From the NCBI GenBank assembly GCA_002378195.1, contig DFRJ01000002.1:329677-393676 (forward strand): a stretch of 64,000 nt of DNA. Reading direction: 5' to 3'. Source of the stretch: Patescibacteria group bacterium UBA3466 (lineage in GTDB: Bacteria; Patescibacteriota; Minisyncoccia; Phycocordibacterales; UBA918). Below, in pieces: positions 10,140 through 64,000 of the stretch. The number at the start of each line of letters is the position of its first letter. Position 1 is the first letter of the stretch. The notes beneath the pieces are model-generated. The model saw only the letters and a program-made list of their open reading frames with translations. It was not told where the DNA came from and made no database searches. Made by a program: the position numbers and the translations under genes.

Positions 10140-10589
10140 TTACAACAAAGTACGCGCGCTACCCGTCACCACACCCCAAATATAACAATCCTCCATCTCA
10201 TTAACTGCAATTGGTTCATAACCGACCTGCTCGGAGACCAACACCATAGCCCCAGATATCATTTTTAGGCGCTTTACCACCATTTCACCATACACTGCTG
10301 CCACCACAATATGACCATCTTTTGGTGTGACTGATCTGTCCACCACCAGGATATCGTTATCAAAAATCTTGGCTCCTTCCATCGAATCACCAGATACACG
10401 CACAAAAAAGGTGGCCGACTCGTTTTGCACTAGCAAATCATTGATGTTTAGTGACTTTTCCACTAAATCATCACCGGGAGCAGGGAAACCGGCGGCAGGC
10501 TGGCTGGCATACAAAGGATGTTCTGTAGCCTGATTTATATCAGCCATTGAGATGCTTTTAACTACAGTTTCTTTAGGCTGGTTGCTCAT
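10140..10589 (-). CDS. umuD: UmuD-like S24 peptidase (LexA C-terminal-domain fold without an N-terminal HTH)
   Basis: Ser-Lys dyad context: VRVSGDSMEGAKIFDNDILVVD ... VVKRLK. The likely autocleavage site is AAG|F. At 149 aa it has no room for a DNA-binding domain. Confidence 0.75.
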   Translation of the reverse strand: MSNQPKETVVKSISMADINQATEHPLYASQPAAGFPAPGDDLVEKSLNINDLLVQNESATFFVRVSGDSMEGAKIFDNDILVVDRSVTPKDGHIVVAAVYGEMVVKRLKMISGAMVLVSEQVGYEPIAVNEMEDCYIWGVVTGSARTLL

Positions 10590-11837: not shown

Positions 11838-14800
11838 TTAGTCGATATCGACGTTCGAATCAAGGTCTTCTCCTTCAAAGTCAGGATACTCCTCGCTTCC
11901 CGGACAAACTATATCATTGATCTTCCAACGCGTTGTTTTGTAAACAAATCCAGTTGGGTCACTGTGCGGAACAATTCCCTTCTCAAACCAAGGAACTAGG
12001 ATTTCGTCGCTGTAGTTCAATTGGAATTGCTTAACGGCTGCGTCTGTCGCTGCGTCAAACTCACCAGTTACCGCCACGTCGTAGCCCATTACGATACTGA
12101 GGAACATCTGTAGCTTAGTCACTTCCCAACGATCATTTTCCCATCCAACTTGCATGAAATCGATAATGAATGGGCACTGATTCACAGTCGAAGCACCGAG
12201 TACAATTCCTTCTGGAGCTGGTTCAGTTGTTCTGGTTCTAGTTCCAGATGAACTACCGCCAGATGAAGTTTCTTCCTCAGGCTCTTCTGGTTCTTCAGGC
12301 TCTTCTTCCACCACCTGATTTACAAAGTCACAACGGTTACCTTCGTAGATTGGCTCATCAATAACGATCAGAGCCGACAAGCTGTTTCCAATTGTAGTGA
12401 AAATTGATTCGTCCTCGATATAGAACTCACACGACATACTGTCAGTGTCTCCAGTTAACACCTGTAGGTTCTGTCTCACTTCTACTTGCTCATAACCAGC
12501 TGGCATCGCTTCAACCACCACATAGTCATCGCCAAGCAATACGTCGAAGTAATAGTAACCAGTATCATCGGTTGAAGTTGAGGCGATTACATTACCTTCT
12601 CCATCTTCTAGGTAGATAGTCCATCCAGCTTCAGGAACTTCTTGCGCATCTACTAACAAGTACTTGTAACCATCGATTCTTTCAGTCGGCTCTTCAGACA
12701 GAGCGTTGTAGAAGTCACATGTGTATGGTGTCTCATCGTCCATAGACAAGCCTTCGCTACCATACTGCTTTGGATCAAATTCTAGATAACAAGATTCGTA
12801 ACCTTCGCCATTAATGAAGTCATACTCACCTTCATACTCGACTCCGACCTGGTACCAGCCTAGTTGCATAACTTCTGAGACTTCATAATCTCCAACTGGT
12901 GCGTAGAAGTAGTAGTAACCACTGTCGTCAGTTGTAGTTGAGGTGATAAGTTCTTGGTCTTCGTAAAGCTCAATTGTCCAGCCAGCTAGCGGTGTTGCGT
13001 ACTCTGGATCGCCTTCAAACTTATAACCTTCGATCAACATCATGTCTGACGTATCATCGTCACAAGGAACGATAGTTTCTTCATGAATGTCAAAACGGAA
13101 TCCGTCAGATTGAGTATCGACCCACAGTCGGAAGTCTACTCCGTCATAATCTGGAGTCGCGACATCTGAACCATCGTCAGTCGGAACGTTATTAGTTTCA
13201 GAGTGATTCTCTAGCTTGAAACTACCTGAAAGATTACTGAAGTTAGTAATTCCTGCGTCTCGTACTTCAATTCGAGCGTCAATCCATTCATTGTTGGTAT
13301 TACCTCCAGGATTATGCTTACCGTACAACGCCACCTTAACTGTTCCACCTTCTCGACTCACAAACAGACCTGATTTATTACCTGGGTCATCGAAGTTAGT
13401 CACCGTGTGCGGGTCGTTGATCATGGTTGCTGAGGTCTCTCCAGATTCGATAATAGAAACTGGGAACCATTCACCAAATTCAACTGTAGTGTAAGCAGCA
13501 TCACCAAGGATAACTTGCTCATTTAAATGTCCGTTACCAGTATTACCAGTTTCATTCAAGATTACTCGTGCTTCCACAGTCGCCTTACATTCCGGACAGT
13601 TATACTCTTCACCATTGTTTACCTCCACAGCCACAGCGTCTTCACCAGTGGTTAGGTAAAACTCGAAATCTACTCCCTCGTCACCATTCTTATCGAAGAT
13701 GTCAGGATAGCTACTATCCTCAGGATCCTCTAGTTCCCAACCAGGAACCGGACCTCGATCTACTGCCCCAAGATCAATACCTTGAGTCATAATGTTTCCA
13801 AAGGCATAATCGAACTGAGATCCATTATTTCCTCCGCTGATAGCTAACCGGAGATCAGTGCCGTTTCTTTCAACTGCAATTCCGTCCACATCAAGCGCAA
13901 AGCTATTGATAGTTGCATCTCCCACCTCGTCAAAATTGAACCAGGTTCCGGCAGGAATCACATTGTCTTCGTCTCCTAGGTAAATATTCCCATCAAATGA
14001 TACTGATTCAGGAGCATTATCAAGCGAGATCTTTACTAGACGTAAGTCAGTACACTGATTGTCGAGCGTACAATAATCTGTACAGTCGGTGTCACCCGGC
14101 TCACACATTTCCCATCCAGTTACTTCACCGTCACCACAATAAGAGGCGTAGTCTGGCTCCTCAGGCTCTGGCACGTAAGGAATCTCACACAAATCTCCTT
14201 CACCTTCAATTACCAGTTCGTAATACAGTCCAGCCGGGTTATTGGCAGGATTACTGTTACCTGCAAAATTTTCCACCACTACCGACAATTCGTTATTTCC
14301 ACTCTGAATTAGGCCAGTAACATCATACTCCTTAGTAGCAGTATGGTTCACACCACCCAATTCTTCTCCGGCCAGAGCGTCGTTTAGTGAGGCAGAGAAA
14401 TTATTGTCAGCCGCGATATACAGGGTAGCTTCAGTCAAAACGTCACCATTCCAACCAAATTGATTTACAAAAGTCTGTGTTTCTGACTCACTCGGGTTTT
14501 GCGGACCTTGATCTCCCCAGATCCACTCTGCAAGTGGCAATGATTCAGTCCAATTGTCATGGATAAAATCTAGCACTACTGCAAGAGCTCCGTCCTTTTC
14601 AACCACCGTATTTGTATCATCACTCTTAATTGTCACTGTACACTGGGTTGGTACTTCTGGCTCTTCACAGCTTCCGTCAATAATAGTAATCGCGTCAAGA
14701 TCGAAACCGTCACCGTTTGATCCTTGCACACCATTTGACTGGTCCACCAACTTAACAAACTTAACAAAGTCCAGATTGGTATCAGCAATATCAACAGTTC

Positions 14801-16493
14801 CGTCTCCAGTAAGAGTATCGGCTAGTTCGAAGTTAATTCCATCCTCAGACAGATAAACATCAATCATTTCCCCTGTAGCATCAGTGCCTCCGGTAATTTC
14901 CCAGATAGCAATATCTGCACCGGCCTGATCGACAGCGATCTTGTTATCGAATTCATACACCAATTCTCCATTGATACCCATTGAATAGAAGTCTAATGGA
15001 TTCACTTCCCAATCACTCCCCTCGCTACCAAAGAAGTTTGAATATGGTGCTACACCAGCTTCAACAGCTGCCACATCACCTCTAGCAGCATCTACAGCAC
15101 CACCGCCATTTGTTAGACCTTGAATGTGAGACACCACCTGCCCTTCGTAAGTACATACTGACGGAGCTTCGGGCTCTTCTGTTTCTTTCAAGAAGTAAGC
15201 TCGAGCCACCGGTGTGAGCTGTTGCACGAAAGAAGGTGCAACTTGTAGGGTGCTGAGTGCTAGTTGAGGCACTTCTGGGATGTCGATGTAGTCATACTGA
15301 CCATCAATGTCATTAACTACAATACTTGGACCAGCATTGATGTTGTCAGTAAAGATGTGTGGGATGTCGGCACCTTCGTTATGTGTACTGGTATTGGCAA
15401 TATTAAGCACTGAAGGTGATGTAACCTCAAAACCTGGCGCCACATTAATACCGTGCCAGCCGTTATTTTCGGTTGTAATATCACTTGCGTCTACAGTCGA
15501 ACCGTTAACCACGATTCCACTACCTTCAAAATCCTTAACAGTTACATTTTCTAGAGTAATATCGATTGATTCGTAGATATTAATTCCATGCAATTGCTCA
15601 GGCCAAGGCTGATCACCACTGCTCATCAACACAACATCTTTTACAGTCACACCGTCAGTATTGGTAATACCCAACACAGCGTTGTTACTATTGCTAGTTT
15701 TCACAAACTGACCGTCTACGGTAAAACCGTTACCGTCTAGCACAATCGCCTTTGTGATGCTTGTTTGTTCTGTAGTAGAGATGTCAGCTGTCAGCTCAAT
15801 TGTTTCTCCAGCTTCAGTTGTAGCTGCATCAATTGCTTCTTGAATAGTCGCAAAAAATAGATCATCCTCTACATTTCGAACCGTTCCTGCAGGTGCAATT
15901 GGAGTACCGGTAACTACAACATTATCTAGCTTGAACACCTCGTTACTAGTGAAGAAAGCGTTAAATTGTAGCAGTACGCTTGGCTTATCATCCATATCAG
16001 ATGACAAATTGATCTCAGTTAGCGTCCAATCAGAAGTATCGTCACCATCGCCGTCAGAGTAAGTTTTTACTACATCTGCGCCAGTTGGAATAGTCCCTGG
16101 AGTAGCTCGCAGTGTAACACTTTCGCCTGCTTCCAGGTTATCAAGCTGGTAGTAATATGAAACCTTGATGTCTTCATATCCCACAGTTGAAAAACCTGCC
16201 CGTAGTAAAGCATCGGTTGGTGAGGTGGTAGATACCTGGGCGCGGATGTTTCCTTCTTGTGCTCCAGCCGCATTGTTTACGGTTGCCCAAGCGTCACCGA
16301 CTAAAGCTCCGATCCAGTTGCTAAAATCTTCAGTCTCAAAACTGTCTGAAAACAGTACGTCTGGTGCAGCCGCCTCAGCAACATTAAAATTGAAAAAAGT
16401 CGCAGGCACTGCGCTCACTAGTAATGACACGATAGTAAGAGCGGCAAATAGCTTTGCCGAAAATCTCCCCTTCGTCAGAGAATTAATATTCAT
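11838..16493 (-). CDS. Giant (1551 aa) secreted multidomain surface protein: signal peptide, right-handed beta-helix (PbH1-like) repeats, Cys-containing modules, two tandem CnaB/SdrD-B-like repeats, a PEEPEEPEEPEEE linker, and a C-terminal peptidoglycan-binding (PG_binding_1-like) domain
   Basis: Beta-helix rungs (NNAVLGITNTDGVTVKDVVL...NVTVKDFEGSGIVVNGSTV). Repeats GWTIELYEDQELITSTTTDDSGYYYFYAPVGDYEV and GWTIYLEDGEGNVIASTSTDDTGYYYFDVLLGDDYVV. The C-terminus VTGEFDAATDAAVKQFQLNY matches the PG-binding motif. Confidence 0.7.
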   Translation of the reverse strand: MNINSLTKGRFSAKLFAALTIVSLLVSAVPATFFNFNVAEAAAPDVLFSDSFETEDFSNWIGALVGDAWATVNNAAGAQEGNIRAQVSTTSPTDALLRAGFSTVGYEDIKVSYYYQLDNLEAGESVTLRATPGTIPTGADVVKTYSDGDGDDTSDWTLTEINLSSDMDDKPSVLLQFNAFFTSNEVFKLDNVVVTGTPIAPAGTVRNVEDDLFFATIQEAIDAATTEAGETIELTADISTTEQTSITKAIVLDGNGFTVDGQFVKTSNSNNAVLGITNTDGVTVKDVVLMSSGDQPWPEQLHGINIYESIDITLENVTVKDFEGSGIVVNGSTVDASDITTENNGWHGINVAPGFEVTSPSVLNIANTSTHNEGADIPHIFTDNINAGPSIVVNDIDGQYDYIDIPEVPQLALSTLQVAPSFVQQLTPVARAYFLKETEEPEAPSVCTYEGQVVSHIQGLTNGGGAVDAARGDVAAVEAGVAPYSNFFGSEGSDWEVNPLDFYSMGINGELVYEFDNKIAVDQAGADIAIWEITGGTDATGEMIDVYLSEDGINFELADTLTGDGTVDIADTNLDFVKFVKLVDQSNGVQGSNGDGFDLDAITIIDGSCEEPEVPTQCTVTIKSDDTNTVVEKDGALAVVLDFIHDNWTESLPLAEWIWGDQGPQNPSESETQTFVNQFGWNGDVLTEATLYIAADNNFSASLNDALAGEELGGVNHTATKEYDVTGLIQSGNNELSVVVENFAGNSNPANNPAGLYYELVIEGEGDLCEIPYVPEPEEPDYASYCGDGEVTGWEMCEPGDTDCTDYCTLDNQCTDLRLVKISLDNAPESVSFDGNIYLGDEDNVIPAGTWFNFDEVGDATINSFALDVDGIAVERNGTDLRLAISGGNNGSQFDYAFGNIMTQGIDLGAVDRGPVPGWELEDPEDSSYPDIFDKNGDEGVDFEFYLTTGEDAVAVEVNNGEEYNCPECKATVEARVILNETGNTGNGHLNEQVILGDAAYTTVEFGEWFPVSIIESGETSATMINDPHTVTNFDDPGNKSGLFVSREGGTVKVALYGKHNPGGNTNNEWIDARIEVRDAGITNFSNLSGSFKLENHSETNNVPTDDGSDVATPDYDGVDFRLWVDTQSDGFRFDIHEETIVPCDDDTSDMMLIEGYKFEGDPEYATPLAGWTIELYEDQELITSTTTDDSGYYYFYAPVGDYEVSEVMQLGWYQVGVEYEGEYDFINGEGYESCYLEFDPKQYGSEGLSMDDETPYTCDFYNALSEEPTERIDGYKYLLVDAQEVPEAGWTIYLEDGEGNVIASTSTDDTGYYYFDVLLGDDYVVVEAMPAGYEQVEVRQNLQVLTGDTDSMSCEFYIEDESIFTTIGNSLSALIVIDEPIYEGNRCDFVNQVVEEEPEEPEEPEEETSSGGSSSGTRTRTTEPAPEGIVLGASTVNQCPFIIDFMQVGWENDRWEVTKLQMFLSIVMGYDVAVTGEFDAATDAAVKQFQLNYSDEILVPWFEKGIVPHSDPTGFVYKTTRWKINDIVCPGSEEYPDFEGEDLDSNVDID

Positions 16494-20097: not shown

Positions 20098-20200
20098 TCT
20101 CATCTCCTTTTTGTACTATTAGTGGTTTCGCCCCTTGCTCAACCTCTATTTCGAATATAACTCTAAGTCTTGAATTGCGCAAATGGTAATGCACATGAAT

Positions 20201-20230
20201 AAAAGGCCGGAGCGAAGCTCCGGCCTTTTA
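20201..20230 (-). terminator. Intrinsic terminator AAAAGGCCGGAGCGAAGCTCCGGCCTTTTA, overlapping the stop of the CNNM gene
   Basis: Read directly from the sequence. A near-identical copy lies at 25276-25305. Confidence 0.7.
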
Positions 20231-21190
20231 TTCATCCCCATCATCCTCATCCTCAATCTCCTGCTGAATAATCTCTTCGATAATATCCTCCATAGAAACC
20301 ACCCCAATAAACTGTTTTTGACTATTTTGCACAATCGCTAAATGCTGCCGATTCTTAAGCATCCGCGCCAGAACCCGATCCAACATATCGTTTCCTCGTA
20401 CCCGTAAAAACTTTTTATCTACCGCATCTTCAGTTTGTCTCAGTGAAATATCATCATCCTCAACCAACAATTCTTTTACATATAAAATACCGATAATATT
20501 GCTTTCATTTCCGCTATAAACCGGGATTCGTGAGTAGCCGCTGTCAGTGATTTTTTCAAAAAAGTCATCAGTTAGTTTTTGATTTTCATCCGCCGACACC
20601 ACGTCTTTGGCAGGAGTCATGACTTCTCTCACTCGTACATGCGAAAACTGCAGCGCGCCGTGCAAAATCCGCTCCTCATCAGCATCAATATCACTATGCT
20701 CTGAGTTCTCGTGCTCTGAGATAATGTCCATTAACTCAGACTTTGAATAGGTAGTGGGTAATTCCGAACCAAGGAAGTAGTCTAGAACCTTTGAGATCGG
20801 CCAAGCAATCGGAAAACACAGTACAATTGCCAACTTAGTAAACCAAATGGTTTTAGCGCCAAACCATAGCGCATAGCGTGAAATCACTGCTTGCGGGATA
20901 ATCTCACCAAAGACCACGATAAGGGCTGTAGCAATGATCCCTGCGATCAGGCCAGATGCGATTGTACCCAAAAAGATAGATAAGGTGGTGTTAACGGCCA
21001 CGTTACCTAGAAGTAGCGTAGTCAACAGTAAATTTCCATTTTGCCGCACCGGGTAAATAGTTTTAGCATTTTCATCACCGTGCCTGGCCCGTCTAGCGAG
21101 TGATTGGGTATCTAGCGATAGGAGTCCAAGTGTTAAGCCCGAGAAGAGCCCTGATAAAAGCACAAGGACTAAAGATATTATGTATTCCAT
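20228..21190 (-). CDS. CNNM/CorC/TlyC-family membrane protein (DUF21 TM domain plus CBS pair)
   Basis: The N-terminal DUF21-like TM region (LVLVLLSGLFSGLTLGLLSLD) is followed by CBS-like sequence and an acidic C-terminus. Confidence 0.75.
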   Translation of the reverse strand: MEYIISLVLVLLSGLFSGLTLGLLSLDTQSLARRARHGDENAKTIYPVRQNGNLLLTTLLLGNVAVNTTLSIFLGTIASGLIAGIIATALIVVFGEIIPQAVISRYALWFGAKTIWFTKLAIVLCFPIAWPISKVLDYFLGSELPTTYSKSELMDIISEHENSEHSDIDADEERILHGALQFSHVRVREVMTPAKDVVSADENQKLTDDFFEKITDSGYSRIPVYSGNESNIIGILYVKELLVEDDDISLRQTEDAVDKKFLRVRGNDMLDRVLARMLKNRQHLAIVQNSQKQFIGVVSMEDIIEEIIQQEIEDEDDGDE

Positions 21191-22673: not shown

Positions 22674-22696
22674 GGCCGGCGTCTACGACGCCGGCC
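22674..22696. repeat. GC-rich palindrome GGCCGGCGTC-TAC-GACGCCGGCC, a member of the GGCCGGCG hairpin family
   Basis: Read directly from the sequence. It is downstream of the 22700-23197 gene but has no T-run. Confidence 0.6.
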
Positions 22697-22699
22697 ATT

Positions 22700-23197
22700 C
22701 TATCCACACAAGATTTTCCACCAAAACGGAAACTCGGTCCGAATCACAGTCATAAGTAGCTCTTGATTACGAGCGCCAATATCTGGCAACCACGCACTAC
22801 ACTCCATGACCACTCGACTAGACTTATCCCAGGTATTATCTACAACATGTGACACGTGCACAATGTCATCATCGCCGTACCAAATGACGGAACAAAAACC
22901 ATGCCTCAAACCTTGGTTGACGATTTGATCACGGAAATAATCAATACTGGTCAGTATTTCATTACGCTCATCCAATGACAGAGCGTTCTCACCTGTACCA
23001 GTATCAAACGCCAACAAGAAAATCGGTGCGGATTCGGGAAAACCTTCTGGAGTAACAGACAGAGTCAACAAACCTCTCTCAGTCACTCCACACTCATTAG
23101 CCACTGCTCGCAACTTACTCCTGATTAGATATATTTTTAATAGACCATCAAGCCGATTGAGAAGATTACCCGCATAACGCAAAACTGATTGGAACAT
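22700..23197 (-). CDS. Hypothetical cytoplasmic protein (165 aa), first of a run of small orphan genes
   Basis: ORF with a diverged copy of the conserved leader (TCCTCGCTATTCGCGCATTAG) immediately upstream. Confidence 0.45.
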   Translation of the reverse strand: MFQSVLRYAGNLLNRLDGLLKIYLIRSKLRAVANECGVTERGLLTLSVTPEGFPESAPIFLLAFDTGTGENALSLDERNEILTSIDYFRDQIVNQGLRHGFCSVIWYGDDDIVHVSHVVDNTWDKSSRVVMECSAWLPDIGARNQELLMTVIRTEFPFWWKILCG

Positions 23198-24076: not shown

Positions 24077-24099
24077 GCCGGCGAGCAAAGCTCGCCGGC
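24077..24099 (-). terminator. Terminator hairpin GCCGGCGAGC-AAA-GCTCGCCGGC followed on the minus strand by ATTTTTATAT (for the 24143-24586 gene)
   Basis: Read directly from the sequence. Confidence 0.6.
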
Positions 24100-25211: not shown

Positions 25212-25275
25212 TTCATGCCTCCAAAGAACTTAATAACTAGTAAACTTAGTACCTAAAATTTATGACATTGTCAAT

Positions 25276-25305
25276 AAAAGGCCGGGGCGAAGCTCCGGCC
25301 TTTTT
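25276..25305 (-). terminator. Intrinsic terminator AAAAGGCCGGGGCGAAGCTCCGGCCTTTTTG after typA
   Basis: It is near-identical to the terminator at 20201-20230. Confidence 0.7.
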
Positions 25306-25306
25306 G

Positions 25307-27088
25307 TTATTTATCTCGCTTTCGTTCGCTTTCTTTAAGAAATTGCTTACGTAGTCTAATTGACTCCGGACAAACTTCTAGATATTCGTCGGCCAACATA
25401 ATCTCAAGTCCAAGCTCGATTGAAAGTGGTTTGTGGGGAGTTAGATTGATCGCATCATCACTTCCTGACGCTCTGACGTTGGTAAGCTGCTTTCCTTTCG
25501 TCGGATTTACCACCATCTCTTCTCCCTTTGAGGTATTTCCGATCACCATACCTTCATACACCTCTTCTCCCGCTCCAATATATAACTCACCTCGATCTTG
25601 CAGTCCAAAGAGTGAAAAACCAAGCGCTTTTCCCGTCGCCATTGACGTCATTGAGGCTGTCTTTCGTTTCTTGATCTCTCCCGCATATGGTCGGAACTCA
25701 ATAAATCGTGAGGCCATAATTCCCTCACCTTTAGTATCAATGATGAATTGGTTCTTGTAGCCAAGTAGACCACGGGTTGGACCTTCAAACAATAACCGCA
25801 CCTGATTCTCGTGCGGAATCATGTTTTGCATAATAAAGCCGCGATTAGAAAGTCGTTCGATCACCGCTCCCTGGTACTCTTCTGGAATATCAATAGTTAC
25901 TTCCTCGTACGGCTCAGACTTCACGCCATCAATTTCTTTGATAATCACCTCTGGTTGAGATACGGATAGTTCGTACCCTTCTCGTCTCATGTTTTCAAGA
26001 AGTACCGCAATGTGCATTTCTCCTCGTCCTTTTACTAGGAAGGTGTCACCAGTACTTTCAACTTGCAGACCAACGTTAATCTCCAGCTCTTTTTCGAGTC
26101 GTTCACCAATTTGTCGTGAGGTTACATACTTTCCTTCTCGTCCAGCAAATGGACTTGAATTTACCAAGAATGTCATTGCTACTGTTGGCTCATCTACTGA
26201 GATAGCTGGCAACAGCTCAGCTCCTTCATCATCGGTAATAGTTTCACCAATATTAATATCTTCTAAACCAGCAATCAGAACAATGTCTCCAGCGTAAGCA
26301 TCTTCTAACTCTACCTGCTTTACTCCTTCGTAACCTGAAAGCTTCACGATCTTCCCCTTCTTAGTTTCTTCACCTTCAGATTTAATAAATACTTGTTGAC
26401 CCTTTGAAACCTTTCCGTCGTAGATTCGTGCCACTGCGAGTCGCCCAAGGAAGTTATCGTAACCAAGATTAAACACCTGAGCTCGGAGGGCATCAGCTTC
26501 GTCATATCCCTTAGCCGCTGGCACGTGCTCGAGCACAGTATCAAGAACTGGTGCAAGATCTGTCATCTCGTCTTCCATATTCTTTTTGGCCACACCGTCT
26601 CGTCCAATAGCGTAAACTACCGGAAAATCAGACTGTTCGTCGTTTGCACCTAGTTCTAGGAAAAGCTCCAAGACTTGCTCTTCAGCCCGATCAGGATCAG
26701 CCGCTGGCTTATCGATCTTGTTTAGTACCACAATTGGCTTCAAGCCTAACTCGAGAGACTTCTTGAGTACGAAACGTGTTTGTGGCATTGGACCCTCCTG
26801 CGCGTCGACCACCAACAGCACCGAATCGATTGAACGTAGTACCCGTTCTACCTCTGATCCGAAGTCGGCGTGACCAGGAGTGTCTACAATATTAATCTTG
26901 GTATCTTTGTAGGTTACTGAAGTATTCTTGGCGTAAATGGTAATACCCCGCTCTTGCTCAAGCGCGTTATTATCCATTGACGCATCACCGTCTCGGGAGC
27001 CAGTAAATTCCATCAAACCATCTGTAAGCGTGGTTTTTCCGTGGTCTACGTGCGCGATGATTGCGATATTACGAATTTCCTGTGACAT
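25307..27088 (-). CDS. typA: Translational GTPase TypA/BipA
   Basis: [24 protein letters not shown] and NKID G-motifs, with EF-G-like domains. The true start is MSQEIRN at 27088; the ORF-track extension to 27169 reads through an upstream GC palindrome. Confidence 0.9.
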
Positions 27089-27141
27089 AAATAAAAATAA
27101 TAAATAATAAAACTTCGTGGCCCTACAAAATAGTTGAGAAA

Positions 27142-27170
27142 GGTGGCCGGCGCCTGCGGCGCCGGCCACC
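27142..27170. repeat. 29-bp perfect GC palindrome GGTGGCCGGCGCC-TGC-GGCGCCGGCCACC in the divergent promoter region between typA and the 27290 gene
   Basis: Read directly from the sequence. Its 23-nt core is identical to 62741-62763, inside argS. Confidence 0.65.
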
Positions 27171-27289
27171 CACGAACCCGACTAGAATACTGATTTTATC
27201 CAACTTTGTCTACCTTTTTCATTCCCTCTTGACTAAAATATGTTTTGGAATAAATATACAGTTTGAACTGTACCTTAGGAGCTGAACAT

Positions 27290-31992: not shown

Positions 31993-32106
31993 TGGTGCAA
32001 GGATGCGCCTCGCAAAGAAAGCGGAGAAGACAGGATTCGAACCTGCTCACGGTAAAATAATCTCCCAGATTATTTTACCCCACACACGCTTTCCCTTGCA
32101 GTGCGG
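31993..32106 (-). repeat. 114-nt repeat A, copy 2, abutting (3-nt overlap) the 3' end of intact tRNA-Ser
   Basis: See copy 1. Confidence 0.6.
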
Positions 32107-32190
32107 AGAGTGAGGGATTCGAACCCTCGATACGATTTCTCGTATACATCCTTTCCAAGGATGCGCGATCGACCACTCTGCCAACTCTCC
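32104..32190 (-). tRNA. tRNA-Ser (anticodon GGA), type II with long variable arm; the 3' CCA is not encoded
   Basis: The minus strand reads GGAGAGT-TG-GCAGAGTGGTCGATCGC-G-CATCC-TTGGAAA-GGATG-TATACGAGAAATCGTATC-GAGGG-TTCGAAT-CCCTC-ACTCTCC-G. The anticodon loop is TTGGAAA. A variable-arm hairpin is present. Confidence 0.75.
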
Positions 32191-38712: not shown

Positions 38713-40707
38713 TTGAAAGTTATTATTAAAAAATTTATGAACGAAACAGAAAAAACAACAACGAATCAATCAACTGACCGACCGCGACGACATCGAAATA
38801 ACAATCGACGAAACGGTGGTCATGGAGGGAACCGCAATCAACCACGACGCGGCAACCAAGGTGGTGCACCTGGCCGCTCAAACGAGCGCTCAAATGGTAA
38901 GCCGCCAGCCAAACGCAATGGACGAAAGCGTCGCAATAATCAATTTCGACGACGATCAAACACGTCACCGGCTTTGGCGCACCGGTTAAACGTCACCGAC
39001 GACAAAATGCCGGTCATTCCAGAAATTACTGATGAAGACACAGTCCGAATTATTCCAGTTTCTGGAGTTGAAGAAATCGGGCGAAACATGAACATTATCG
39101 AAACCAAAGATGACATCATCGTGGTGGACGCTGGTTTCCAGTTTGTTAATGAAGAAAGTAATGCCCCAGGGATCAACTACATCCTACCGAACACGCAATA
39201 CCTAGAAGAGCGGAAGCATAAAATTCGCGCTCTTGTGGTAACTCATGGTCACTTGGACCACATCGGTGGTATTCCATTTATCATGGAGAGAATTGGCAAT
39301 CCACCAGTCTACACCCAATACCTCACTTCCCTAATGATCCTCAAACGACAGGAAGAATTCCCACACATGGATCCAATCGACATGCGAGTGATCAAAGAAG
39401 GAGAAAGCTTCACTGTTGGAAACACTAAGATCAAAACCTTCCGGGTAACTCACTCGATTCCTGACGCAATGGGTGTCTGTGTTGAAACCAAGCACGGAGA
39501 CGTTGTAGTAACCGGTGACATCAAGCTGGTCCATGAAGACGGAAAAGTGGTAGTGGAAGAACGAGGTCAATGGGAAAAGGTTGGCGAAAACAACAACCTG
39601 GCACTTCTGTGTGATTCCACCAACTCAGACCGAGCTGGATTCTCAGCTTCAGAAGCTAAGGTATTTGAAACCCTTGAGGAAATCATTAAAAAATCTACCG
39701 GTCGACTCATCGTTGGTACTTTCGCTTCACAATTCGATCGACTAATCAGTATTGTTAAAGTCTGCGAAGAAATGAACAAGAAGGTAGTAATGGAAGGTCG
39801 GAGTATCAAAACCAACATTGAGATTGCTCTACAAGCAAAGTTAATGGAAGCAAAGCCTGGTACTTTTATTAACGCCGGAGACATCAATGACTATCCTGCC
39901 GATAAGATCGTAATCCTATCGACTGGAGCCCAGGGTGAACAATTTGCCGCCTTGATGCGTATGGCGACAGATAAGCACAAATTTATCACCTTAAGCGAAC
40001 GAGACACTATTGTATTGTCCTCATCTGTGATCCCGGGTAATGAAATTGCCGTACAAAAACTAAAGGATAATATTTACCGTAAGAACGTTCGAGTGATCAA
40101 CTACCAAGGTTCGCACGTCCACTCATCTGGACATGGTAACGCCGGAGAATTGGTATGGGTACACCAGACTGTGAAGCCAAAATTCTTGATTCCGGTACAC
40201 GGTCATCACTATCACCTAAAGAGCCATCGTAACGCAGCCGTTGAGAACGGTTTCCCGAAGGAAAATGTGCCAGTGCCTGACAACGGTTCTATTATCGACA
40301 TCAAAAACGGTAGCGAGTTAACGGTTCAGCCAATGAAGATTCCTAATGAACTCATGATGGTTGATGGAACTACTGTCGGAACAAGACAAGAAGTAGTGCT
40401 ACGCGATCGAACAACCCTGTCTGAGGATGGAATGTTTGTTATTATCGCCACTGTTAATTCGAAGACTGGTAAACTACGAAAGTCGCCAGACATTATCTCA
40501 CGTGGATTTGTCTACCTAAGAGAAAACCAGCAACTACTCTCAGAGGCCAGAGTCTTGATCAAGAAGACCGTTGAGAAGCAGACTGAAAGAATGCATCCAC
40601 TAGACTTGGAAACAGTAAAGGATGAACTGACAGACGTAGTAACCAGTTTCCTACTCCAGAAAACACAAAAGAACCCAATGGTCATTCCTGTGCTAATTGG
40701 TATATAG
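38713..40707 (+). CDS. rnj: Ribonuclease J (metallo-beta-lactamase/beta-CASP) with a ~100-aa highly basic, low-complexity N-terminal extension
   Basis: VTHGHLDHIGGIP and the beta-CASP motifs identify RNase J. The N-terminus (RPRRHRNNNRRNGGHGGNRNQPRRGNQGG...) is R/N/G-rich. Confidence 0.85.
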   Translation: MKVIIKKFMNETEKTTTNQSTDRPRRHRNNNRRNGGHGGNRNQPRRGNQGGAPGRSNERSNGKPPAKRNGRKRRNNQFRRRSNTSPALAHRLNVTDDKMPVIPEITDEDTVRIIPVSGVEEIGRNMNIIETKDDIIVVDAGFQFVNEESNAPGINYILPNTQYLEERKHKIRALVVTHGHLDHIGGIPFIMERIGNPPVYTQYLTSLMILKRQEEFPHMDPIDMRVIKEGESFTVGNTKIKTFRVTHSIPDAMGVCVETKHGDVVVTGDIKLVHEDGKVVVEERGQWEKVGENNNLALLCDSTNSDRAGFSASEAKVFETLEEIIKKSTGRLIVGTFASQFDRLISIVKVCEEMNKKVVMEGRSIKTNIEIALQAKLMEAKPGTFINAGDINDYPADKIVILSTGAQGEQFAALMRMATDKHKFITLSERDTIVLSSSVIPGNEIAVQKLKDNIYRKNVRVINYQGSHVHSSGHGNAGELVWVHQTVKPKFLIPVHGHHYHLKSHRNAAVENGFPKENVPVPDNGSIIDIKNGSELTVQPMKIPNELMMVDGTTVGTRQEVVLRDRTTLSEDGMFVIIATVNSKTGKLRKSPDIISRGFVYLRENQQLLSEARVLIKKTVEKQTERMHPLDLETVKDELTDVVTSFLLQKTQKNPMVIPVLIGI

Positions 40708-40876: not shown

Positions 40877-41257
40877 ATGTCAAACCCATACCCAGTTAAG
40901 CAGTTATCTTTTCGCGGAGACAATAACCAATCATTTGCCATTCTCAGAATCCGCCAGGTAGGACCACTATCGTGTCGCTGGCGCATTACTCTGAAAGAAC
41001 CAGGCGGTCGAGACCGACTAGAGATAAAGGAAACCATCAGTGACCCGTATGACGATGTGGACAATATCACGACGGTACATCTTGACCAGTCTCCCCCATC
41101 AACCAGATTTCGGTTTTTGCGTGAGCACACCAACAATCAGCTCATATTTGAGTTTGTGATCAAGCTTAAGAATTCACGTAATTCAGCTACCCAAGTCGCG
41201 GTATTAAACAGCTTTGTTCAGACATTCATGGATGACACTAGACAGAATCCTATGTAG
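40877..41257 (+). CDS. Hypothetical protein (126 aa)
   Basis: ORF followed by terminator hairpin 41272-41302 (TAGCCGGCAGAAAC-TTCG-GTTTCTGCCGGCTA) and a T-run. Confidence 0.35.
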   Translation: MSNPYPVKQLSFRGDNNQSFAILRIRQVGPLSCRWRITLKEPGGRDRLEIKETISDPYDDVDNITTVHLDQSPPSTRFRFLREHTNNQLIFEFVIKLKNSRNSATQVAVLNSFVQTFMDDTRQNPM

Positions 41258-41316
41258 TCACAAGTTGTTCATAGCCGGCAGAAACTTCGTTTCTGCCGGC
41301 TATAATGTTTTTATAT

Positions 41317-61447: not shown

Positions 61448-62446
61448 TCATCTCAACCGTCGACTCATTTTTTCTTTCTGAATAGCTGCATACTTTTGCT
61501 GTTGGCGCTTCTGGTTGTGCGCGTAATGTCTGCCAGCCTCAGATGTATCTTTGCTGTCTTGATAATCTTGCTCCCGCAAAATTTTATGATAATTATCCAA
61601 CTCCCTCTCAGTTAAATCGCCAGTTTCCAGCGCTTCCAATACAGCACAGCCGGCACTTTTTTCATGGTCACAGTTTCTAAACTTACACCTCGCTGCGATT
61701 TCATCAATTTTATTAAAAACCTCGGCTTCTTTCTGGTCATCGTTATCAATCACACCAAGCTCTCTCATACCTGGTGTATCAATGATAAAACCACCGCTTG
61801 GTAGTGCAAATAATTGTCTTGAGGTGGTGGTGTGCCGCCCCTTATTATCGTCAGAGCGGGTTGCTTGCACAGCCTGCACATCAGCCTGCAGCAACCAGTT
61901 GGTTATGGTAGATTTACCGGCACCAGATGAACCAAGCAAGACAGCCGTCTTGCCCTCTGCCACATAACCACGCAACGCGGCCATATTTTCACCGTTAGTT
62001 GCAGACACGACCTCTACGTTTATGTCACCGGCCACCGCTTCTACTTCTCTTATTTTCTGTTCCAAATCATCTGCGATGTCAGCCTTATTCAAGACTATCA
62101 CCGCTTCAATACCACTCTGAGCAGCTAGCAATAAATAGCGCTCTAGTCGATTGATGCTGTAGTCGCCATCCAGACCAAGGACAACAAAAATTACATCGAC
62201 GTTTGCTGCAATAATTTGCTCTTCATCTGAATCGGCAGCTTTGCGCTTAATTACGCTTCGCCGATTAACAACCTCTTCGATAACCGCTTTCCCGTCATCT
62301 AATACTTCTAGCAAAACAAAATCACCCACCTTAGGAAAATCTCCTTCGGCATGGAAATTTCCCCGCACCGTAGCTATCAGCTCATCAGCCTCTGTCTTGA
62401 CCACAAAGTTAGTACGATGCACCTCAGTTATTCGACCAACAGTCAT
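61448..62446 (-). CDS. rsgA: Ribosome small-subunit-dependent GTPase A (RsgA/YjeQ)
   Basis: Circularly permuted GTPase (VLNKADI, LLGSSGAGKSTI) and a C-terminal zinc finger CKFRNCDHEKSAGCAV. Confidence 0.85.
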   Translation of the reverse strand: MTVGRITEVHRTNFVVKTEADELIATVRGNFHAEGDFPKVGDFVLLEVLDDGKAVIEEVVNRRSVIKRKAADSDEEQIIAANVDVIFVVLGLDGDYSINRLERYLLLAAQSGIEAVIVLNKADIADDLEQKIREVEAVAGDINVEVVSATNGENMAALRGYVAEGKTAVLLGSSGAGKSTITNWLLQADVQAVQATRSDDNKGRHTTTSRQLFALPSGGFIIDTPGMRELGVIDNDDQKEAEVFNKIDEIAARCKFRNCDHEKSAGCAVLEALETGDLTERELDNYHKILREQDYQDSKDTSEAGRHYAHNQKRQQQKYAAIQKEKMSRRLR

Positions 62447-62458
62447 AAAAAGATTTTA

Positions 62459-64000
62459 TTACATCTCATCGACTGTTTCTACACCGATTAGTCCAAAGCC
62501 ATTCTTTAAAGTTATTGCGACAGCTTGCACCAAAGCCAGCTTGTATGACTCATTATCAGACCCATCCAAAATCGCTTCTTTGGCATACCAGCTATTGAAC
62601 TCATGACACAGTGCAAGCAGGTACTGAGAAACATGATGTATAGACAGATCTTTAACCGAATCCAAAACTGATTGCTCAAAATACAACAAAGTTCTCAAAA
62701 GATCAGCCTCCTGTCCCAGACTAGAAGGTGGGGTTGGTAGGCCGGCGCCTGCGGCGCCGGCCTTCCGCAAGATCGACTGAGTACGTACGTACGTGTACAT
62801 CACATACATTCCAGAATCCCCCTGCACATCGACTGACTCCTCAATATCAAACGCCACATCGAGCTTGCTGTCAGACTTCAAGAAAGCAAATTTTACCGCC
62901 GCTAGCGCTAGCTTTTCAGCTAACTCAGTTTCATTAGCCAGATCAGCTCGCTTGCTCTCACTAAACCTCTCCGCAACTGACCGTTTCACCTCATCAATTA
63001 CTTCATCTGCAAACAATACCGTACCAGCTCTTGATGACATCTTTTTAAATGAACCATTTTCATCCTTAAGTCCTACATAGCCATAAGCAATATGAGAAAA
63101 ATCTTTCCGATCACCAATTTCCAACTGCTCACAAACCGCGAACAGTTGTCGCATATGTAGAGTCTGATCCGGACCAACCACCCAAACCAACTTATCAGCT
63201 TGATACTTTTTCTTCTTCAGGTCAGTCAAGGCGATGTCTTGCGTCATATACAAAGCGGTTCCGTCATTTTTAAGCAGGACCGTATCTGATAAACCATACT
63301 TGTCTTCCAGATCAGTCAAAATGGCACCATCTTCAATTTGCTGAAAAAGATTATTGTCCAAACCTTTCTGTACGTAATTTTTACCATCCTCGTAGTGTTC
63401 ATGTTCATACCACACAAAATCCCAATGACTACCAATACGCCCTAAAGTCTGATCAATTCCGTCATAAGCAAACTGCAACACTCGCTCCCACAGCAACCAA
63501 GTGTTTTTATCATTTGACTCCCAGTCAATCACCATCTGCCGGGTAAACGCCTCCACTTCAGGGTCATTAGAGAAATCTTTTTCGGCCAGCACATAACATT
63601 CGGTCACAAACAAGTCTGGTCGCACATTCTTATCCTCTGGCAATAGCCATTCATCCTGATGTTCGGCCCAGTAACCAATGTCAGTTGGTGCCTCTGGATT
63701 CTTCTTCATGTGTGCCAAGTAACCGTACATATTCTTAGCAATCGCTATACCGCGATTATTGTACACACCATCAGCCACCACCTTGGCTCCCGACGCTTTT
63801 AGCAGTCGAACCAAACTCATACCCACCAAGCTGTTTCGTAGGTGACCAACGTGCATAGCTTTATTAGGATTTGGTGAACTATGCTCAACTACCCAGTTCA
63901 CTCCAGCCTGCGTGGTGTTAGCACCAAAATTTTCACCCAATTCAATAATGCCAAGTGCGTGTTGCACCTTAGCCTCTGCAGTTAAGTAGAAGTTAACAAA
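62459..64000 (-). CDS. argS: Arginine--tRNA ligase; the N-terminus extends past the window end
   Basis: HIGH-region HVGHLRNSL. KMSSR class I motif. DALR anticodon-binding C-terminus (YTYVRTQSILRKAG). The ORF is open to position 64000. Confidence 0.85.
   Translation of the reverse strand, partial: FVNFYLTAEAKVQHALGIIELGENFGANTTQAGVNWVVEHSSPNPNKAMHVGHLRNSLVGMSLVRLLKASGAKVVADGVYNNRGIAIAKNMYGYLAHMKKNPEAPTDIGYWAEHQDEWLLPEDKNVRPDLFVTECYVLAEKDFSNDPEVEAFTRQMVIDWESNDKNTWLLWERVLQFAYDGIDQTLGRIGSHWDFVWYEHEHYEDGKNYVQKGLDNNLFQQIEDGAILTDLEDKYGLSDTVLLKNDGTALYMTQDIALTDLKKKKYQADKLVWVVGPDQTLHMRQLFAVCEQLEIGDRKDFSHIAYGYVGLKDENGSFKKMSSRAGTVLFADEVIDEVKRSVAERFSESKRADLANETELAEKLALAAVKFAFLKSDSKLDVAFDIEESVDVQGDSGMYVMYTYVRTQSILRKAGAAGAGLPTPPSSLGQEADLLRTLLYFEQSVLDSVKDLSIHHVSQYLLALCHEFNSWYAKEAILDGSDNESYKLALVQAVAITLKNGFGLIGVETVDEM
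62739..62763. repeat. GC palindrome AGGCCGGCGCC-TGC-GGCGCCGGCCT lying in-frame inside argS (it encodes AGAAGAG); same core as 27142-27170
   Basis: The 23-nt core identity is read directly. The ORF stays open across it. Confidence 0.65.

What the first reader, a model, noticed from the sequence alone, without database searches (positions are those of the whole stretch)
27142..27170. GGCCGGCGCC-TGC-GGCGCCGGCC palindrome family, including a copy carried in-frame inside argS
An identical 23-nt GC-only palindrome occurs in the typA/27290 divergent promoter region (27142-27170, extended to 13-bp arms) and inside the argS coding sequence (62739-62763). In argS it is in-frame and encodes AGAAGAG within a surface loop of the anticodon-binding domain (between ...SILRKAG and LPTPPSSLG...). 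Related hairpins lie at 22674-22696 (GGCCGGCGTC-TAC-GACGCCGGCC) and 24077-24099 (GCCGGCGAGC-AAA-GCTCGCCGGC), and in the two GGCCGGRGCGAAGCTCCGGCC terminators. In a genome of moderate GC these look like a REP/MITE-like mobile palindrome class that also seeds terminators. The in-frame coding copy is unusual: it inserts a Gly/Ala loop tolerated by an essential enzyme.
Basis: seen in the sequence. Interest (0 to 1): 0.5.

Follow-up and report, generated by a model that had tools for sequence, protein, structure and literature searches.

The report
Conserved GC hairpin overprinted on argS
A 23-base GC-only hairpin lies inside the arginyl-tRNA synthetase gene of a tiny candidate-phyla (Parcubacteria) bacterium; it replaces no length of protein but has been kept base-for-base across species whose silent sites are otherwise scrambled, so the nucleic-acid structure, not the protein, sets those seven amino acids, and the same hairpin has been copied into the leader of another gene.

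Summary
GGCCGGCGCCTGCGGCGCCGGCC occurs exactly twice (27145-27167; 62740-62762), with 0 expected by chance. The argS copy is in frame (K-AGAAGAG-L). The "insertion" reading is wrong: this ArgRS loop has the same length in 120 CPR orthologs and in two solved ArgRS structures, and it is a low-confidence loop in an AlphaFold model. The element is not ordinary protein conservation either. In 7 species (62-69% aa identity, silent sites saturated) the codons are GCC GGC GCC NNN GGC GCC GGC: 34 of 35 wobble bases are C against a 14% background, and the loop codon is free. Other orthologs carry compensatory stem changes (AGSxAAG, AGRxAAG, VGAxGTD), confirmed in DNA. A second such hairpin sits in rsgA of relatives. 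The right arm is the reverse complement of the conserved RKAG codons, which fits origin by template switching. The intergenic copy lies in a conserved, promoter-proximal typA leader whose hairpin has a different sequence in each close relative, so in this genome it was probably copied from argS. Best reading: a selected sense-strand stem-loop, most likely acting in mRNA, plus within-genome copying between hairpins. It is not a REP, MITE or RPE insertion. Its function is unproven.

The parts
62739..62763 (-). Stem-loop inside argS (11-bp arms, sense loop GCA). It encodes AGAAGAG of a disordered ArgRS loop.
   Evidence: Conserved at nucleotide level in orthologs. RNA fold z = -4.15.
62459..64000 (-). 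argS (arginyl-tRNA synthetase) CDS; the N-terminal 84 codons lie beyond the window end.
   Evidence: (P0001 100% identical, 597 aa; Pfam Arg_tRNA_synt_N, tRNA-synt_1d, DALR_1).
27142..27170 (-). Identical hairpin (13-bp arms, sense loop GCA) in the 5' leader of typA.
   Evidence: Relatives L210 and L211 have a hairpin of different sequence at the same position. RNA fold z = -5.37.
27184..27212 (-). Promoter-like TAGACA-17-TATTCT directly upstream of the typA leader hairpin, conserved in L210 and L211.
27171..27176 (-). 5' strand (UUCGUG) of an outer helix that encloses the typA leader hairpin.
   Evidence: Centroid structure. Invariant in the three-species alignment, so there is no covariation to test it.
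27114..27119 (-). 3' strand (CACGAA) of the same outer helix.
25307..27088 (-). typA/bipA translational GTPase CDS.
22674..22696 (-). Third family member (GGCCGGCGUC GUA GACGCCGGCC in sense). It lies 3 nt after the stop of ORF 22700-23197, between two co-directional genes, and has no U-tract.
24077..24099 (-). Terminator-type hairpin that shares GGTGGCCGGCG with the typA leader copy. The stem is conserved at the orthologous position in L210.
20205..20225 (.). Bidirectional intrinsic terminator GGCCGGAGC GAA GCTCCGGCC with A/T-run flanks.
25280..25300 (-). typA terminator, one mismatch from the 20205 terminator including its flanks. Unrelated to the typA terminators of relatives.
61448..62446 (-). 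rsgA, immediately downstream of argS. Four relatives carry a second conserved coding hairpin here; this genome does not.
38713..40707 (+). RNase J gene. Context only: a 5'-end-dependent ribonuclease that stable hairpins could block.

Best explanation
The argS element is a nucleic-acid stem-loop that selection keeps in place, overprinted on seven codons of a disordered, sequence-tolerant ArgRS loop. The structure dictates the peptide (AGAxGAG), not the reverse.

Origin (inferred): it arose in place, with no change in length. The variable downstream codons became the reverse complement of the conserved upstream R-K-A-G codons, which is the signature of a replication template-switch mutation.

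Maintenance (shown): it has been kept as a GC-only helix in a clade of Parcubacteria and has repeatedly decayed in others.

Where it acts (inferred): the strand bias of the loop (C-GNA-G triloops in the sense strand) and the location of the two other window copies (a promoter-proximal typA leader, and just after a stop codon inside an operon) point to the transcript. The most likely role is a very stable mRNA hairpin that blocks or directs ribonucleases (RNase J is encoded nearby) or pauses the ribosome or RNA polymerase.

The typA copy (inferred): the 23/23 identity with the typA-leader hairpin reflects copying within the genome, by template switching or gene conversion, from the ancient argS hairpin onto a pre-existing leader hairpin.

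The molecular function is not shown.
For: (1) No insertion. The loop has the same length in 120 orthologs and in the solved ArgRS structures 6ao8 and 4oby.

(2) Nucleotide-level constraint. Seven species share GCC GGC GCC NNN GGC GCC GGC. Third-position identity at 4-fold sites elsewhere in the gene is 24-41%. Only 1 of 63 conserved 4-fold columns has the same codon in all 7. C is used at 14% of wobble sites in conserved Ala/Gly columns, against 34/35 in the stem. The flanking invariant YVRTQSILRK codons vary freely.

(3) The loop codon is free: A, E, K, Y, F, V, G.

(4) Covariation. I predicted stem changes from the protein patterns and confirmed them in DNA: L206 GGCCGGCAGC/GCTGCCGGCC, L209 GCCGGCCGC/GCGGCCGGC, L208 GGTCGG.GCC/GGC.CCGACC. 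97% of cells are paired, 3 pairs change on both sides, 0/500 shuffles reach the observed value, and slid controls give 19-50% paired. 20 of 120 orthologs are reverse-complement compatible at all three residue pairs, against a 0.78% background.

(5) GC-only stems in genomes of 38-50% GC, extended to 18 bp in L001 at the cost of the near-invariant Leu of SILRK.

(6) A second example. GGCGACGGCC-N4-GGCCGTCGCC lies in rsgA of four relatives; its right arm (AVA[R/H]) is the reverse complement of the conserved TGDG codons.

(7) Sense-strand signature. All 7 loop codons that start with G end in A (p about 1e-4 from each gene's own codon usage). The three window copies read GCA, GCA and GUA on the transcribed strand.

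(8) typA leader. The promoter and flanks are conserved in L210 and L211, but the hairpin differs in sequence and length in each. Terminators show the same pattern: near-identical within this genome, unrelated at orthologous sites in relatives.

(9) Template switching is known to create perfect hairpins in one step (PMC10710096).
Against: - No expression, end-mapping or structure-probing data exist, so RNA versus single-stranded-DNA action is not resolved. Most genes here lie on the leading strand, so transcription and replication orientation are confounded.
- Single-sided stem changes are split 2:2 between sense G.U and antisense G.U.
- The hairpin is absent from the closest ortholog (P0002, 73% identity) and is scattered on the tree, so it is dispensable.
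- It persists in L005 and L208, where the downstream gene is not rsgA. This argues against a role tied to rsgA.
- The compensated orthologs were chosen from protein patterns, which inflates the covariation counts. One prediction failed (L207, decayed).
- Copying from argS to typA is inferred from identity alone.
- Genome-wide copy number is unknown.
Confidence: 0.5

Rival explanations
1. Non-adaptive palindrome. A template-switch mutation created the inverted repeat, and repeated arm-to-arm correction (quasi-palindrome repair), perhaps GC-biased, keeps it perfect. It is merely tolerated because the ArgRS loop is disordered and has no function.
For: The right arm is the reverse complement of the protein-constrained left arm, with no length change. 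Distribution is patchy, with apparent decayed remnants such as KAGAPGNS and KAGAVGAD. The loop is disordered. Strong GC hairpins are concentrated in this sub-lineage: 14 in 110 kb, against 6 in 860 kb of more distant CPR DNA. That could reflect a lineage-specific mutational process.
Against: Neutral concerted evolution would let the stem sequence drift while staying palindromic. Instead 7 species at saturated silent divergence share the identical GC-only stem, and G:C to A:T pair changes are rare despite AT-rich genomes. The GNA loop bias and the extension to 18 bp through a near-invariant residue look like selection for stability. GC-biased correction is not established in these bacteria.
Confidence: 0.2
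2. DNA-level element. The palindrome works in duplex or cruciform DNA, or in lagging-strand-template single-stranded DNA, as a binding or processing site. Candidates are a symmetric dimeric protein, a topoisomerase as at REP/BIME, a replication signal, or a cluster of restriction/methylation sites (GCCGGC, GGCGCC, GGCC).
For: Perfect two-fold symmetry. C-GNA-G triloops are known from my own recollection to be exceptionally stable in DNA mini-hairpins. The sense strand here is also the lagging-strand template, as inferred from GC skew and gene orientation. One copy lies in a divergent promoter region.
Against: No single restriction-type site survives in all compensated variants: L206 loses GGCGCC and L208 loses GCCGGC. 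What is conserved is pairing, not a half-site sequence. Arm length varies from 9 to 18 bp. The typA copy sits just downstream of a conserved promoter-like element inside a larger foldable leader. No DNA-binding partner has been identified.
Confidence: 0.15
3. One reading: a REP/MITE/RPE-like mobile palindrome that inserted in frame into argS and elsewhere, adding a tolerated Gly/Ala loop.
For: Identical or near-identical copies occur at three loci in 64 kb. The same 20-nt stem occurs in many CPR genomes as terminators and in frame as AGAxGAG in VIT1, TsaE and an LTD/PKD protein. One Minisyncoccia MAG has three copies, two with the same loop. Within-genome similarity exceeds orthologous similarity for non-coding hairpins.
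Against: No length difference in ArgRS or RsgA. No target-site duplication, terminal repeats or conserved tag. No transposase or RAYT in the window. The argS copy is vertically conserved with covariation. The exact 23-mer is absent from 2.9 million viral contigs. The recurrence in other genomes came from searching for this exact stem, with no control stem.
Confidence: 0.08
4. Protein-level conservation or chance: AGAxGAG is a functional peptide motif and the palindrome is a by-product.
For: K-A-G at the start of the loop is widespread in ArgRS, including in Neisseria. VIT1 proteins naturally carry a Gly/Ala-rich motif at the hairpin site.
Against: Wobble positions are frozen as the rare C. The central residue is unconstrained. 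The variants are reverse-complement pairs, not conservative replacements. The segment has the lowest model confidence in the protein.
Confidence: 0.02

Closest known systems
Repetitive extragenic palindromes (REP/BIME) of proteobacteria
   Same: Short (20-40 nt) GC-rich imperfect or perfect palindromes present in several copies per genome. They lie between cistrons and near terminators, and have been proposed to stabilise mRNA and bind gyrase (PMC3733652 abstract).
   Different: REPs are extragenic, carry a GTAG or CGTC tag, are linked to RAYT transposases and reach high copy number. Here the oldest copy is inside a coding sequence, no tag or RAYT was found, and the copy number is unknown.
Rickettsia palindromic elements (RPE) and other in-frame MITE insertions
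   Same: Palindromic repeats that end up translated inside housekeeping proteins, at surface positions compatible with the fold (PMC10969869).
   Different: RPEs are about 150 bp and are true insertions that lengthen the protein. The argS element is 21-23 nt, adds no residues, and is under nucleotide-level constraint with covariation.
Template-switch (quasi-palindrome) mutations that create perfect hairpins in one step
   Same: The new arm is the exact reverse complement of adjacent sequence, several bases change together, and length is unchanged (PMC10710096). This matches RKAG[A] -> [x]GAGLP in argS and TGDG -> AVAR in rsgA.
   Different: The cited work documents this in primate genomes as a source of miRNA hairpins. 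Here it is inferred, not reconstructed, for bacterial coding sequence, followed by long-term retention.
5'-terminal and intercistronic mRNA stabiliser hairpins (for example the ompA 5' stem-loop, Bacillus 5' stabilisers against RNase J, the REP stabiliser in malE-malF); recalled from my own knowledge, not tested here
   Same: Very stable stem-loops at the 5' end of a leader or just after a stop codon. This matches the positions of the 27142 and 22674 copies, and RNase J is encoded in the window.
   Different: The effect on stability is untested here. A stabiliser located 290 nt before the stop codon inside a coding sequence is not the classical arrangement.
SPRITE-type terminator-like repeats
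   Same: Terminator-shaped hairpins that occur as near-identical copies within one genome (named in PMC10969869; compare 20205 with 25280).
   Different: Only two copies were seen here. No evidence of transposition.

Membership tests
REP / BIME | Extragenic location | tested here: not met
   The most conserved copy is inside argS. The other copies are intergenic.
REP / BIME | Conserved GTAG or CGTC tetranucleotide at one end of the palindrome (PMC3733652) | tested here: not met
   GTAG abuts only the argS copy on the + strand, as a by-product of the CTA CCA codons. It is absent at 27142 and 22674 and in orthologs such as L001 (CTT CCG).
REP / BIME | Associated RAYT (IS200/IS605-like Y1) transposase gene | tested here: inconclusive
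   None among 59 window ORFs scanned against Pfam. The rest of the roughly 638-kb genome was not available.
REP / BIME | Tens to hundreds of copies per genome | not testable with these tools
   Only 64 kb was seen: 2 exact copies and 1 near copy.
MITE / RPE-type in-frame insertion | Presence/absence length polymorphism relative to orthologs | tested here: not met
   No gap at the site in 120 orthologs or against 6ao8 and 4oby. The same holds for the rsgA hairpin.
MITE / RPE-type in-frame insertion | Terminal inverted repeats flanking an internal segment, with target-site duplication | tested here: not met
   The element is a bare 10-13-bp stem with a 3-nt loop. Its flanks are not direct repeats.
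Intrinsic (rho-independent) terminator | GC-rich hairpin followed by a U-tract, downstream of a gene | tested here: not met
   For 62739 and 22674 there is no U-tract. For 27142 the tail CUUUCUC was not called by the scan, and there is no upstream co-directional gene. The feature is met for 20205, 25280, 24077 and 51230.
Any Rfam family | Match at or above the gathering score | tested here: not met
   Only tRNA-Ser in the whole window. The typA leader gave sub-threshold chance hits only.
Structured RNA element under selection (generic criteria) | Base pairing conserved through compensatory changes across species | tested here: met
   97% paired, 3 pairs with double changes, 0/500 shuffles reach the observed value, slid controls 19-50% paired. 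Sequence choice was guided by protein patterns (bias noted).
Structured RNA element under selection (generic criteria) | Excess constraint on synonymous sites relative to the rest of the gene | tested here: met
   34/35 stem wobble bases are identical, against 1/63 identical conserved 4-fold columns elsewhere.
Structured RNA element under selection (generic criteria) | Shown to be transcribed and folded in vivo, with a phenotype | not testable with these tools
   No transcriptome or probing data are available.
Template-switch-mutation hairpin | One arm is the exact reverse complement of adjacent pre-existing sequence, with no net length change | tested here: met
   CGG AAG GCC GGC (RKAG) against GCC GGC CTT CCG (AGLP) in L001 and, partly, in the window. 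ACG GGC GAC GGC against GCC GTC GCC CGT in rsgA of L209. Ancestral states were not reconstructed.

The most novel reading that the evidence does not exclude
A clade of Parcubacteria maintains a class of GC-only, GNA-capped stem-loops written directly into coding sequence wherever a tolerant Gly/Ala-compatible loop allows (argS, rsgA, VIT1, tsaE), so nucleic-acid structure sets protein sequence. The same hairpins spread within a genome without any transposase, by template switching onto other hairpin sites (leaders, intercistronic sites, terminators). That would be a new, enzyme-free mode of 'mobile' palindrome and a new layer of post-transcriptional control in ultra-small genomes.
Probability: 0.25. 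Interest if true: 0.75.

Novelty: new variant of a known kind. Interest (0 to 1): 0.55.

Why it matters
This is a clear bacterial case of seven codons of an essential enzyme being set by a nucleic-acid helix and not by the protein, across species whose silent sites are otherwise randomised.

If the hairpin acts in mRNA, it points to a simple and portable regulatory or stability device in candidate-phyla bacteria, whose gene regulation is almost unknown.

It also shows how hairpins can be born in place by template switching and then copied between loci. That blurs the line between 'repeat family' and 'structural motif'.

Two practical points follow:
- Such hairpins mislead gene callers. TypA is annotated 20 residues too long in relatives, because the called ORF runs through the leader hairpin.
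- They would be mistaken for low-complexity protein insertions.

Tried and rejected
- **Genome-collection scan.** I scanned genome contigs for GGCCGGCGCC-N3-GGCGCCGGCC. It did not reach this genome, so no genome-wide count was possible and there was no control stem to judge specificity.
- **Metagenome ArgRS loci.** Most were too distant (<=63% identity) and lacked the hairpin. Only L130 was useful.
- **Viral contigs.** The exact 23-mer is absent.
- **Rfam.** Nothing matched.
- **RNA versus DNA from wobble asymmetry.** Two single-sided changes fit sense G.U and two fit antisense G.U, so this is uninformative.
- **Predicted compensated variant in P0042 (AGSAGTG).** Its DNA (L207) is a decayed, non-palindromic sequence.
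- **typA-upstream hairpin in the distant relative L175.** This is an ordinary terminator of an upstream co-directional gene, not a homolog. L212 is the same.
- **Protecting rsgA as a processed transcript.** I dropped this as a specific role because L005 and L208 keep the hairpin without rsgA downstream.
- **DNA-uptake-sequence idea.** GGCCGG is not enriched overall: 12 and 17 occurrences on the two strands against about 7 expected per strand (my own estimate from the counts). What is conserved is the pairing, not a linear motif.
- **Restriction-site cluster idea.** No site is shared by all compensated variants.

Full report
**Observation**

The window is 44% GC. It comes from a candidate-phyla-radiation bacterium of the Parcubacteria/Paceibacteria group. 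Its ArgRS and TypA are 100% identical to proteins found on a 638-kb contig, and the named relatives are Nomurabacteria and Kaiserbacteria.

The 23-mer GGCCGGCGCCTGCGGCGCCGGCC occurs exactly at 27145-27167 and 62740-62762. A third site, 22674-22696, differs by a compensated pair and one loop base. Nothing matched in 100 shuffles. Perfect arms reach 13 bp at 27142-27170 and 11 bp at 62739-62763. Five strong GC hairpins occur in the window, against none in 30 shuffles.

**Not an insertion**

I aligned 120 ArgRS orthologs (55-100% identity). None shows a gap at the site: every ortholog has seven residues there.

Two solved ArgRS structures align through it with the same or greater length: 6ao8 with RKAGEWDATAPT and 4oby with RKAEIDEEQLAAAP.

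An AlphaFold2 model (mean pLDDT 88) puts the segment directly after helix 481-498, in a non-helical stretch 499-515. The only residues with pLDDT below 50 in the whole protein are 501-503. The seven codons therefore occupy a pre-existing, flexible, sequence-variable loop of the DALR anticodon-binding domain.

**Conserved as nucleic acid**

Several orthologs read AGAxGAG with a variable middle residue. I fetched their DNA. Seven species at 62-69% amino-acid identity, with GC of 39-50%, all carry GCC GGC GCC NNN GGC GCC GGC. Their loop codons are GCA, GCA, GAA, AAA, TAC, TTC and GTA.

- In the same genes, third-position identity at 4-fold sites of conserved residues is 24-41%, which is saturated.
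- Only 1 of 63 conserved 4-fold columns has the same codon in all seven species.
- C is the wobble base in 14% of conserved Ala/Gly codons, against 34 of 35 in the stem.
- The invariant flanking residues YVRTQSILRK use many synonymous codons.

Protein conservation cannot produce this pattern.

**Covariation**

From the protein patterns I predicted that AGSxAAG, AGRxAAG and VGAxGTD would be compensated stems. The DNA confirmed three of four:

| Locus | Stem-loop | Result |
|---|---|---|
| L206 | GGCCGGCAGC GGA GCTGCCGGCC | compensated |
| L209 | GCCGGCCGC GCA GCGGCCGGC | compensated |
| L208 | GGTCGGCGCC GAA GGCACCGACC | compensated, one mismatch |
| L207 | — | decayed |

On ten sequences, 97% of cells pair, three pairs change on both sides, 0 of 500 shuffles reach the observed pairing or covariation score, and slid controls give 19-50% pairing. 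I chose these sequences using the protein patterns, which favours the result.

An unselected test gives the same direction. In all 120 orthologs, 20 have all three residue pairs reverse-complement compatible, against 0.78% of other 7-residue windows in the same proteins.

In L001 the helix extends to 18 bp (GGTCGGAAGGCTGGCGCC GCA GGCGCCGGCCTTCCGACC). This changes the near-invariant SILRK to SIGRK.

Hairpin-bearing orthologs are scattered over a neighbour-joining tree, next to sequences that look like decayed remnants (KAGAPGNS, KAGAVGAD). The closest ortholog (73% identity) lacks the hairpin.

**A second case**

rsgA lies directly downstream of argS. In four relatives it carries GGCGACGGCC-N4-GGCCGTCGCC, with arms of 9-13 bp and loops TAGC, TTAA, TTAC and TTCC. 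This encodes T-G-D-G-L-x-A-V-A-[R/H]. The window's rsgA has the same length there but no hairpin.

**Origin**

In both genes the left arm encodes conserved residues (R-K-A-G in ArgRS; T-G-D-G in the GTPase), and the right arm is its reverse complement: A-G-L-P and A-V-A-R. Length does not change.

That is what a replication template-switch mutation produces in a single event (PMC10710096). This step is inferred; I did not reconstruct ancestral states.

A neutral model of arm-to-arm correction would keep the arms complementary but let the sequence drift. The identical GC-only stem in AT-rich genomes at saturated divergence argues for selection on helix stability.

**Which strand**

All seven loop codons that begin with G end in A: GCA three times, GAA twice, GGA and GTA. 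From each gene's own codon usage the joint probability is about 1e-4. This gives C-GNA-G triloops on the sense strand only.

The three window copies read GCA, GCA and GUA on the transcribed (minus) strand. This favours a hairpin formed by the mRNA or by the coding DNA strand. Most genes here are co-oriented with replication, so the two possibilities are confounded. Single-sided stem changes do not discriminate: two fit each strand.

**The intergenic copy**

Gene callers extend TypA of relatives by about 20 residues through the upstream region (P0124-P0128: MGTQPAECLSQL...), which hinted at a hairpin there. The DNA of relatives L210 (TypA 93% identical) and L211 (91%) shows the following, in order:

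1. A conserved promoter-like GTAGACA-N17-TCAGTATTCT.
2. AGnnGGGTTCGTGG.
3. A hairpin.
4. CTTTCTCAAC.
5. GCCACGAA, which can pair with TTCGTG.

The hairpin differs in each species:

| Source | typA leader hairpin |
|---|---|
| Window | GGTGGCCGGCGCC GCA GGCGCCGGCCACC |
| L210 | GACGGCAGGCC TGC GGCCTGCCGTC |
| L211 | GGCACTCAGC CA GCTGAGTGCC |

The window leader folds with z = -5.4 and matches no Rfam family. More distant relatives (L212, L175) instead have an ordinary terminator of an upstream gene.

So the typA hairpin is conserved in position and structure but free in sequence. In this genome it equals the ancient argS hairpin, loop and orientation included.

Terminators behave the same way. 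The typA terminator (25280) differs by one base, flanks included, from the terminator at 20205, but it is unrelated to the typA terminators of L210, L211 and L212. The terminator at 24077 shares GGTGGCCGGCG with the leader copy.

Hairpins in this genome therefore resemble each other more than they resemble their positional orthologs. That indicates within-genome copying or a shared genome-specific constraint. I infer copying from argS to the typA leader; this is not demonstrated.

**Beyond this lineage**

A capped scan of species-representative genomes returned mostly high-GC taxa. It also returned about 15 low-GC CPR loci with the same stem:

- terminators: L031, L059, L064, L082, L100;
- in-frame AGAxGAG in two VIT1 transporters at the same position with different loops (L028, L050);
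- in-frame AGAxGAG in TsaE (L039) and in an LTD/PKD surface protein (L022).

Because I searched for this exact stem and had no control stem, this shows recurrence, not specificity.

Strong GC hairpins are far denser in the window and its closer relatives (14 in 110 kb) than in more distant CPR loci (6 in 860 kb).

**What it is not**

- There is no transposase, integrase or RAYT among 59 window ORFs.
- There is no target-site duplication and no conserved GTAG/CGTC tag.
- There is no indel relative to orthologs.
- The 23-mer is absent from viral contigs.
- The argS and 22674 copies lack a U-tract, so they are not canonical terminators.
- No restriction-type site is common to all compensated variants.

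**Mechanism, with confidence**

Shown: a stem-loop is maintained at nucleotide level with covariation, inside a disordered loop, and without any insertion.

Inferred:
- origin by template switching;
- action on the sense strand, most likely in mRNA;
- intragenomic copying to the typA leader.

Speculative: the role itself. The other copies sit at a 5' leader and directly after a stop codon within an operon, and RNase J is encoded at 38713-40707. The most economical role is therefore a very stable hairpin that blocks or directs ribonucleases, or pauses the ribosome or polymerase. A role specific to rsgA is unlikely, because L005 and L208 keep the hairpin without rsgA downstream.

I give about 0.85 to 'selected or actively maintained nucleic-acid hairpin, not an insertion', and about 0.5 to the full statement including RNA-level action.

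**Verdict**

The finding is a new variant of known kinds, namely structured elements within coding sequence and palindromic repeat families. Interest is moderate to good, and the follow-up experiments are clear and feasible.

Noticed in passing
window 27086-27212 (minus strand); L210 2950-3094; L211 2452-2598: Candidate new cis-regulatory leader of typA in this Paceibacteria sub-lineage. It has a conserved promoter-like GTAGACA-N17-TCAGTATTCT, an outer helix TTCGTG/CACGAA, a species-specific inner hairpin, and a conserved CTTTCTCAAC internal loop. There is no Rfam match.
   Followed up: partly
L001 8257-8282; L003 4231-4258; L206 12254-12275; L209 4451-4480 (window rsgA 61448-62446 lacks it): A second conserved coding-sequence hairpin, GGCGACGGCC-N4-GGCCGTCGCC, in rsgA of four relatives. 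It encodes TGDGLxAVA[R/H]; the right arm is the reverse complement of the conserved GTPase-motif codons.
   Followed up: partly
window 20195-20235 and 25270-25305: Two terminators share AATAAAAGGCCGGRGCGAAGCTCCGGCCTTTT with one mismatch. The first is a 19-bp-arm perfect palindrome (bidirectional). The typA terminators in relatives are unrelated in sequence.
   Followed up: partly
L001 7464-7520 region (argS of P0026): The hairpin extends to 18 bp, with the near-invariant Leu of SILRK replaced by Gly (GGT pairing with ACC). The structure apparently overrides a conserved residue here.
   Followed up: partly
L028 276-298; L050 2454-2476; L039 6087-6109; L022 7735-7757: The same GGCCGGCGCC-N3-GGCGCCGGCC stem is read in frame as AGAxGAG in VIT1-family transporters of two CPR genomes (same protein position, loops TAC and GCC), in TsaE, and in an LTD/PKD surface protein.
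   Followed up: partly
proteins P0124-P0128, P0134, P0143, P0172 (TypA orthologs): Database TypA entries are 15-20 residues too long, because gene callers run the ORF through the stop-free upstream hairpin. In the window the mechanical ORF 25307-27169 does the same; the real start is ATG at 27088.
   Followed up: yes
window 7603-8859 and 10140-10589: A Y-family translesion polymerase (IMS, IMS_C, DUF4113) and an S24 LexA/UmuD-like peptidase, separated by a GH18 gene. This is a umuDC-like pair in a very small genome and could bear on mutational processes.
   Followed up: no
window 446-1984 and 2576-4540: Adjacent secreted-looking proteins, one with a cohesin domain and one with a dockerin type I domain plus Ig-like domains. 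This is a cellulosome-style pairing in a CPR bacterium.
   Followed up: no
window 11838-16493: A 1551-residue ORF with SdrD_B/SpaA-like prealbumin folds and a C-terminal peptidoglycan-binding domain; probably a giant surface protein.
   Followed up: no
window 41274-41300: A 12-bp-arm hairpin GCCGGCAGAAAC TTC GTTTCTGCCGGC lies 4 nt upstream of the MFS transporter gene start (41305) and after ORF 40877-41257. It shares the GCCGGC stem base with the family.
   Followed up: no
L210 2200-2229, 3010-3034, 5418-5444: In the close relative L210 all three strong hairpins start with GACCGG/GACGG...CCGTC, whereas in the window 7 of about 11 start with (G)GCCGG. This may be a genome-specific stem-base signature, but the sample is very small.
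   Followed up: no
window 32103-32190: The only RNA gene detected in the 64 kb is tRNA-Ser(GGA), on the minus strand.
   Followed up: yes
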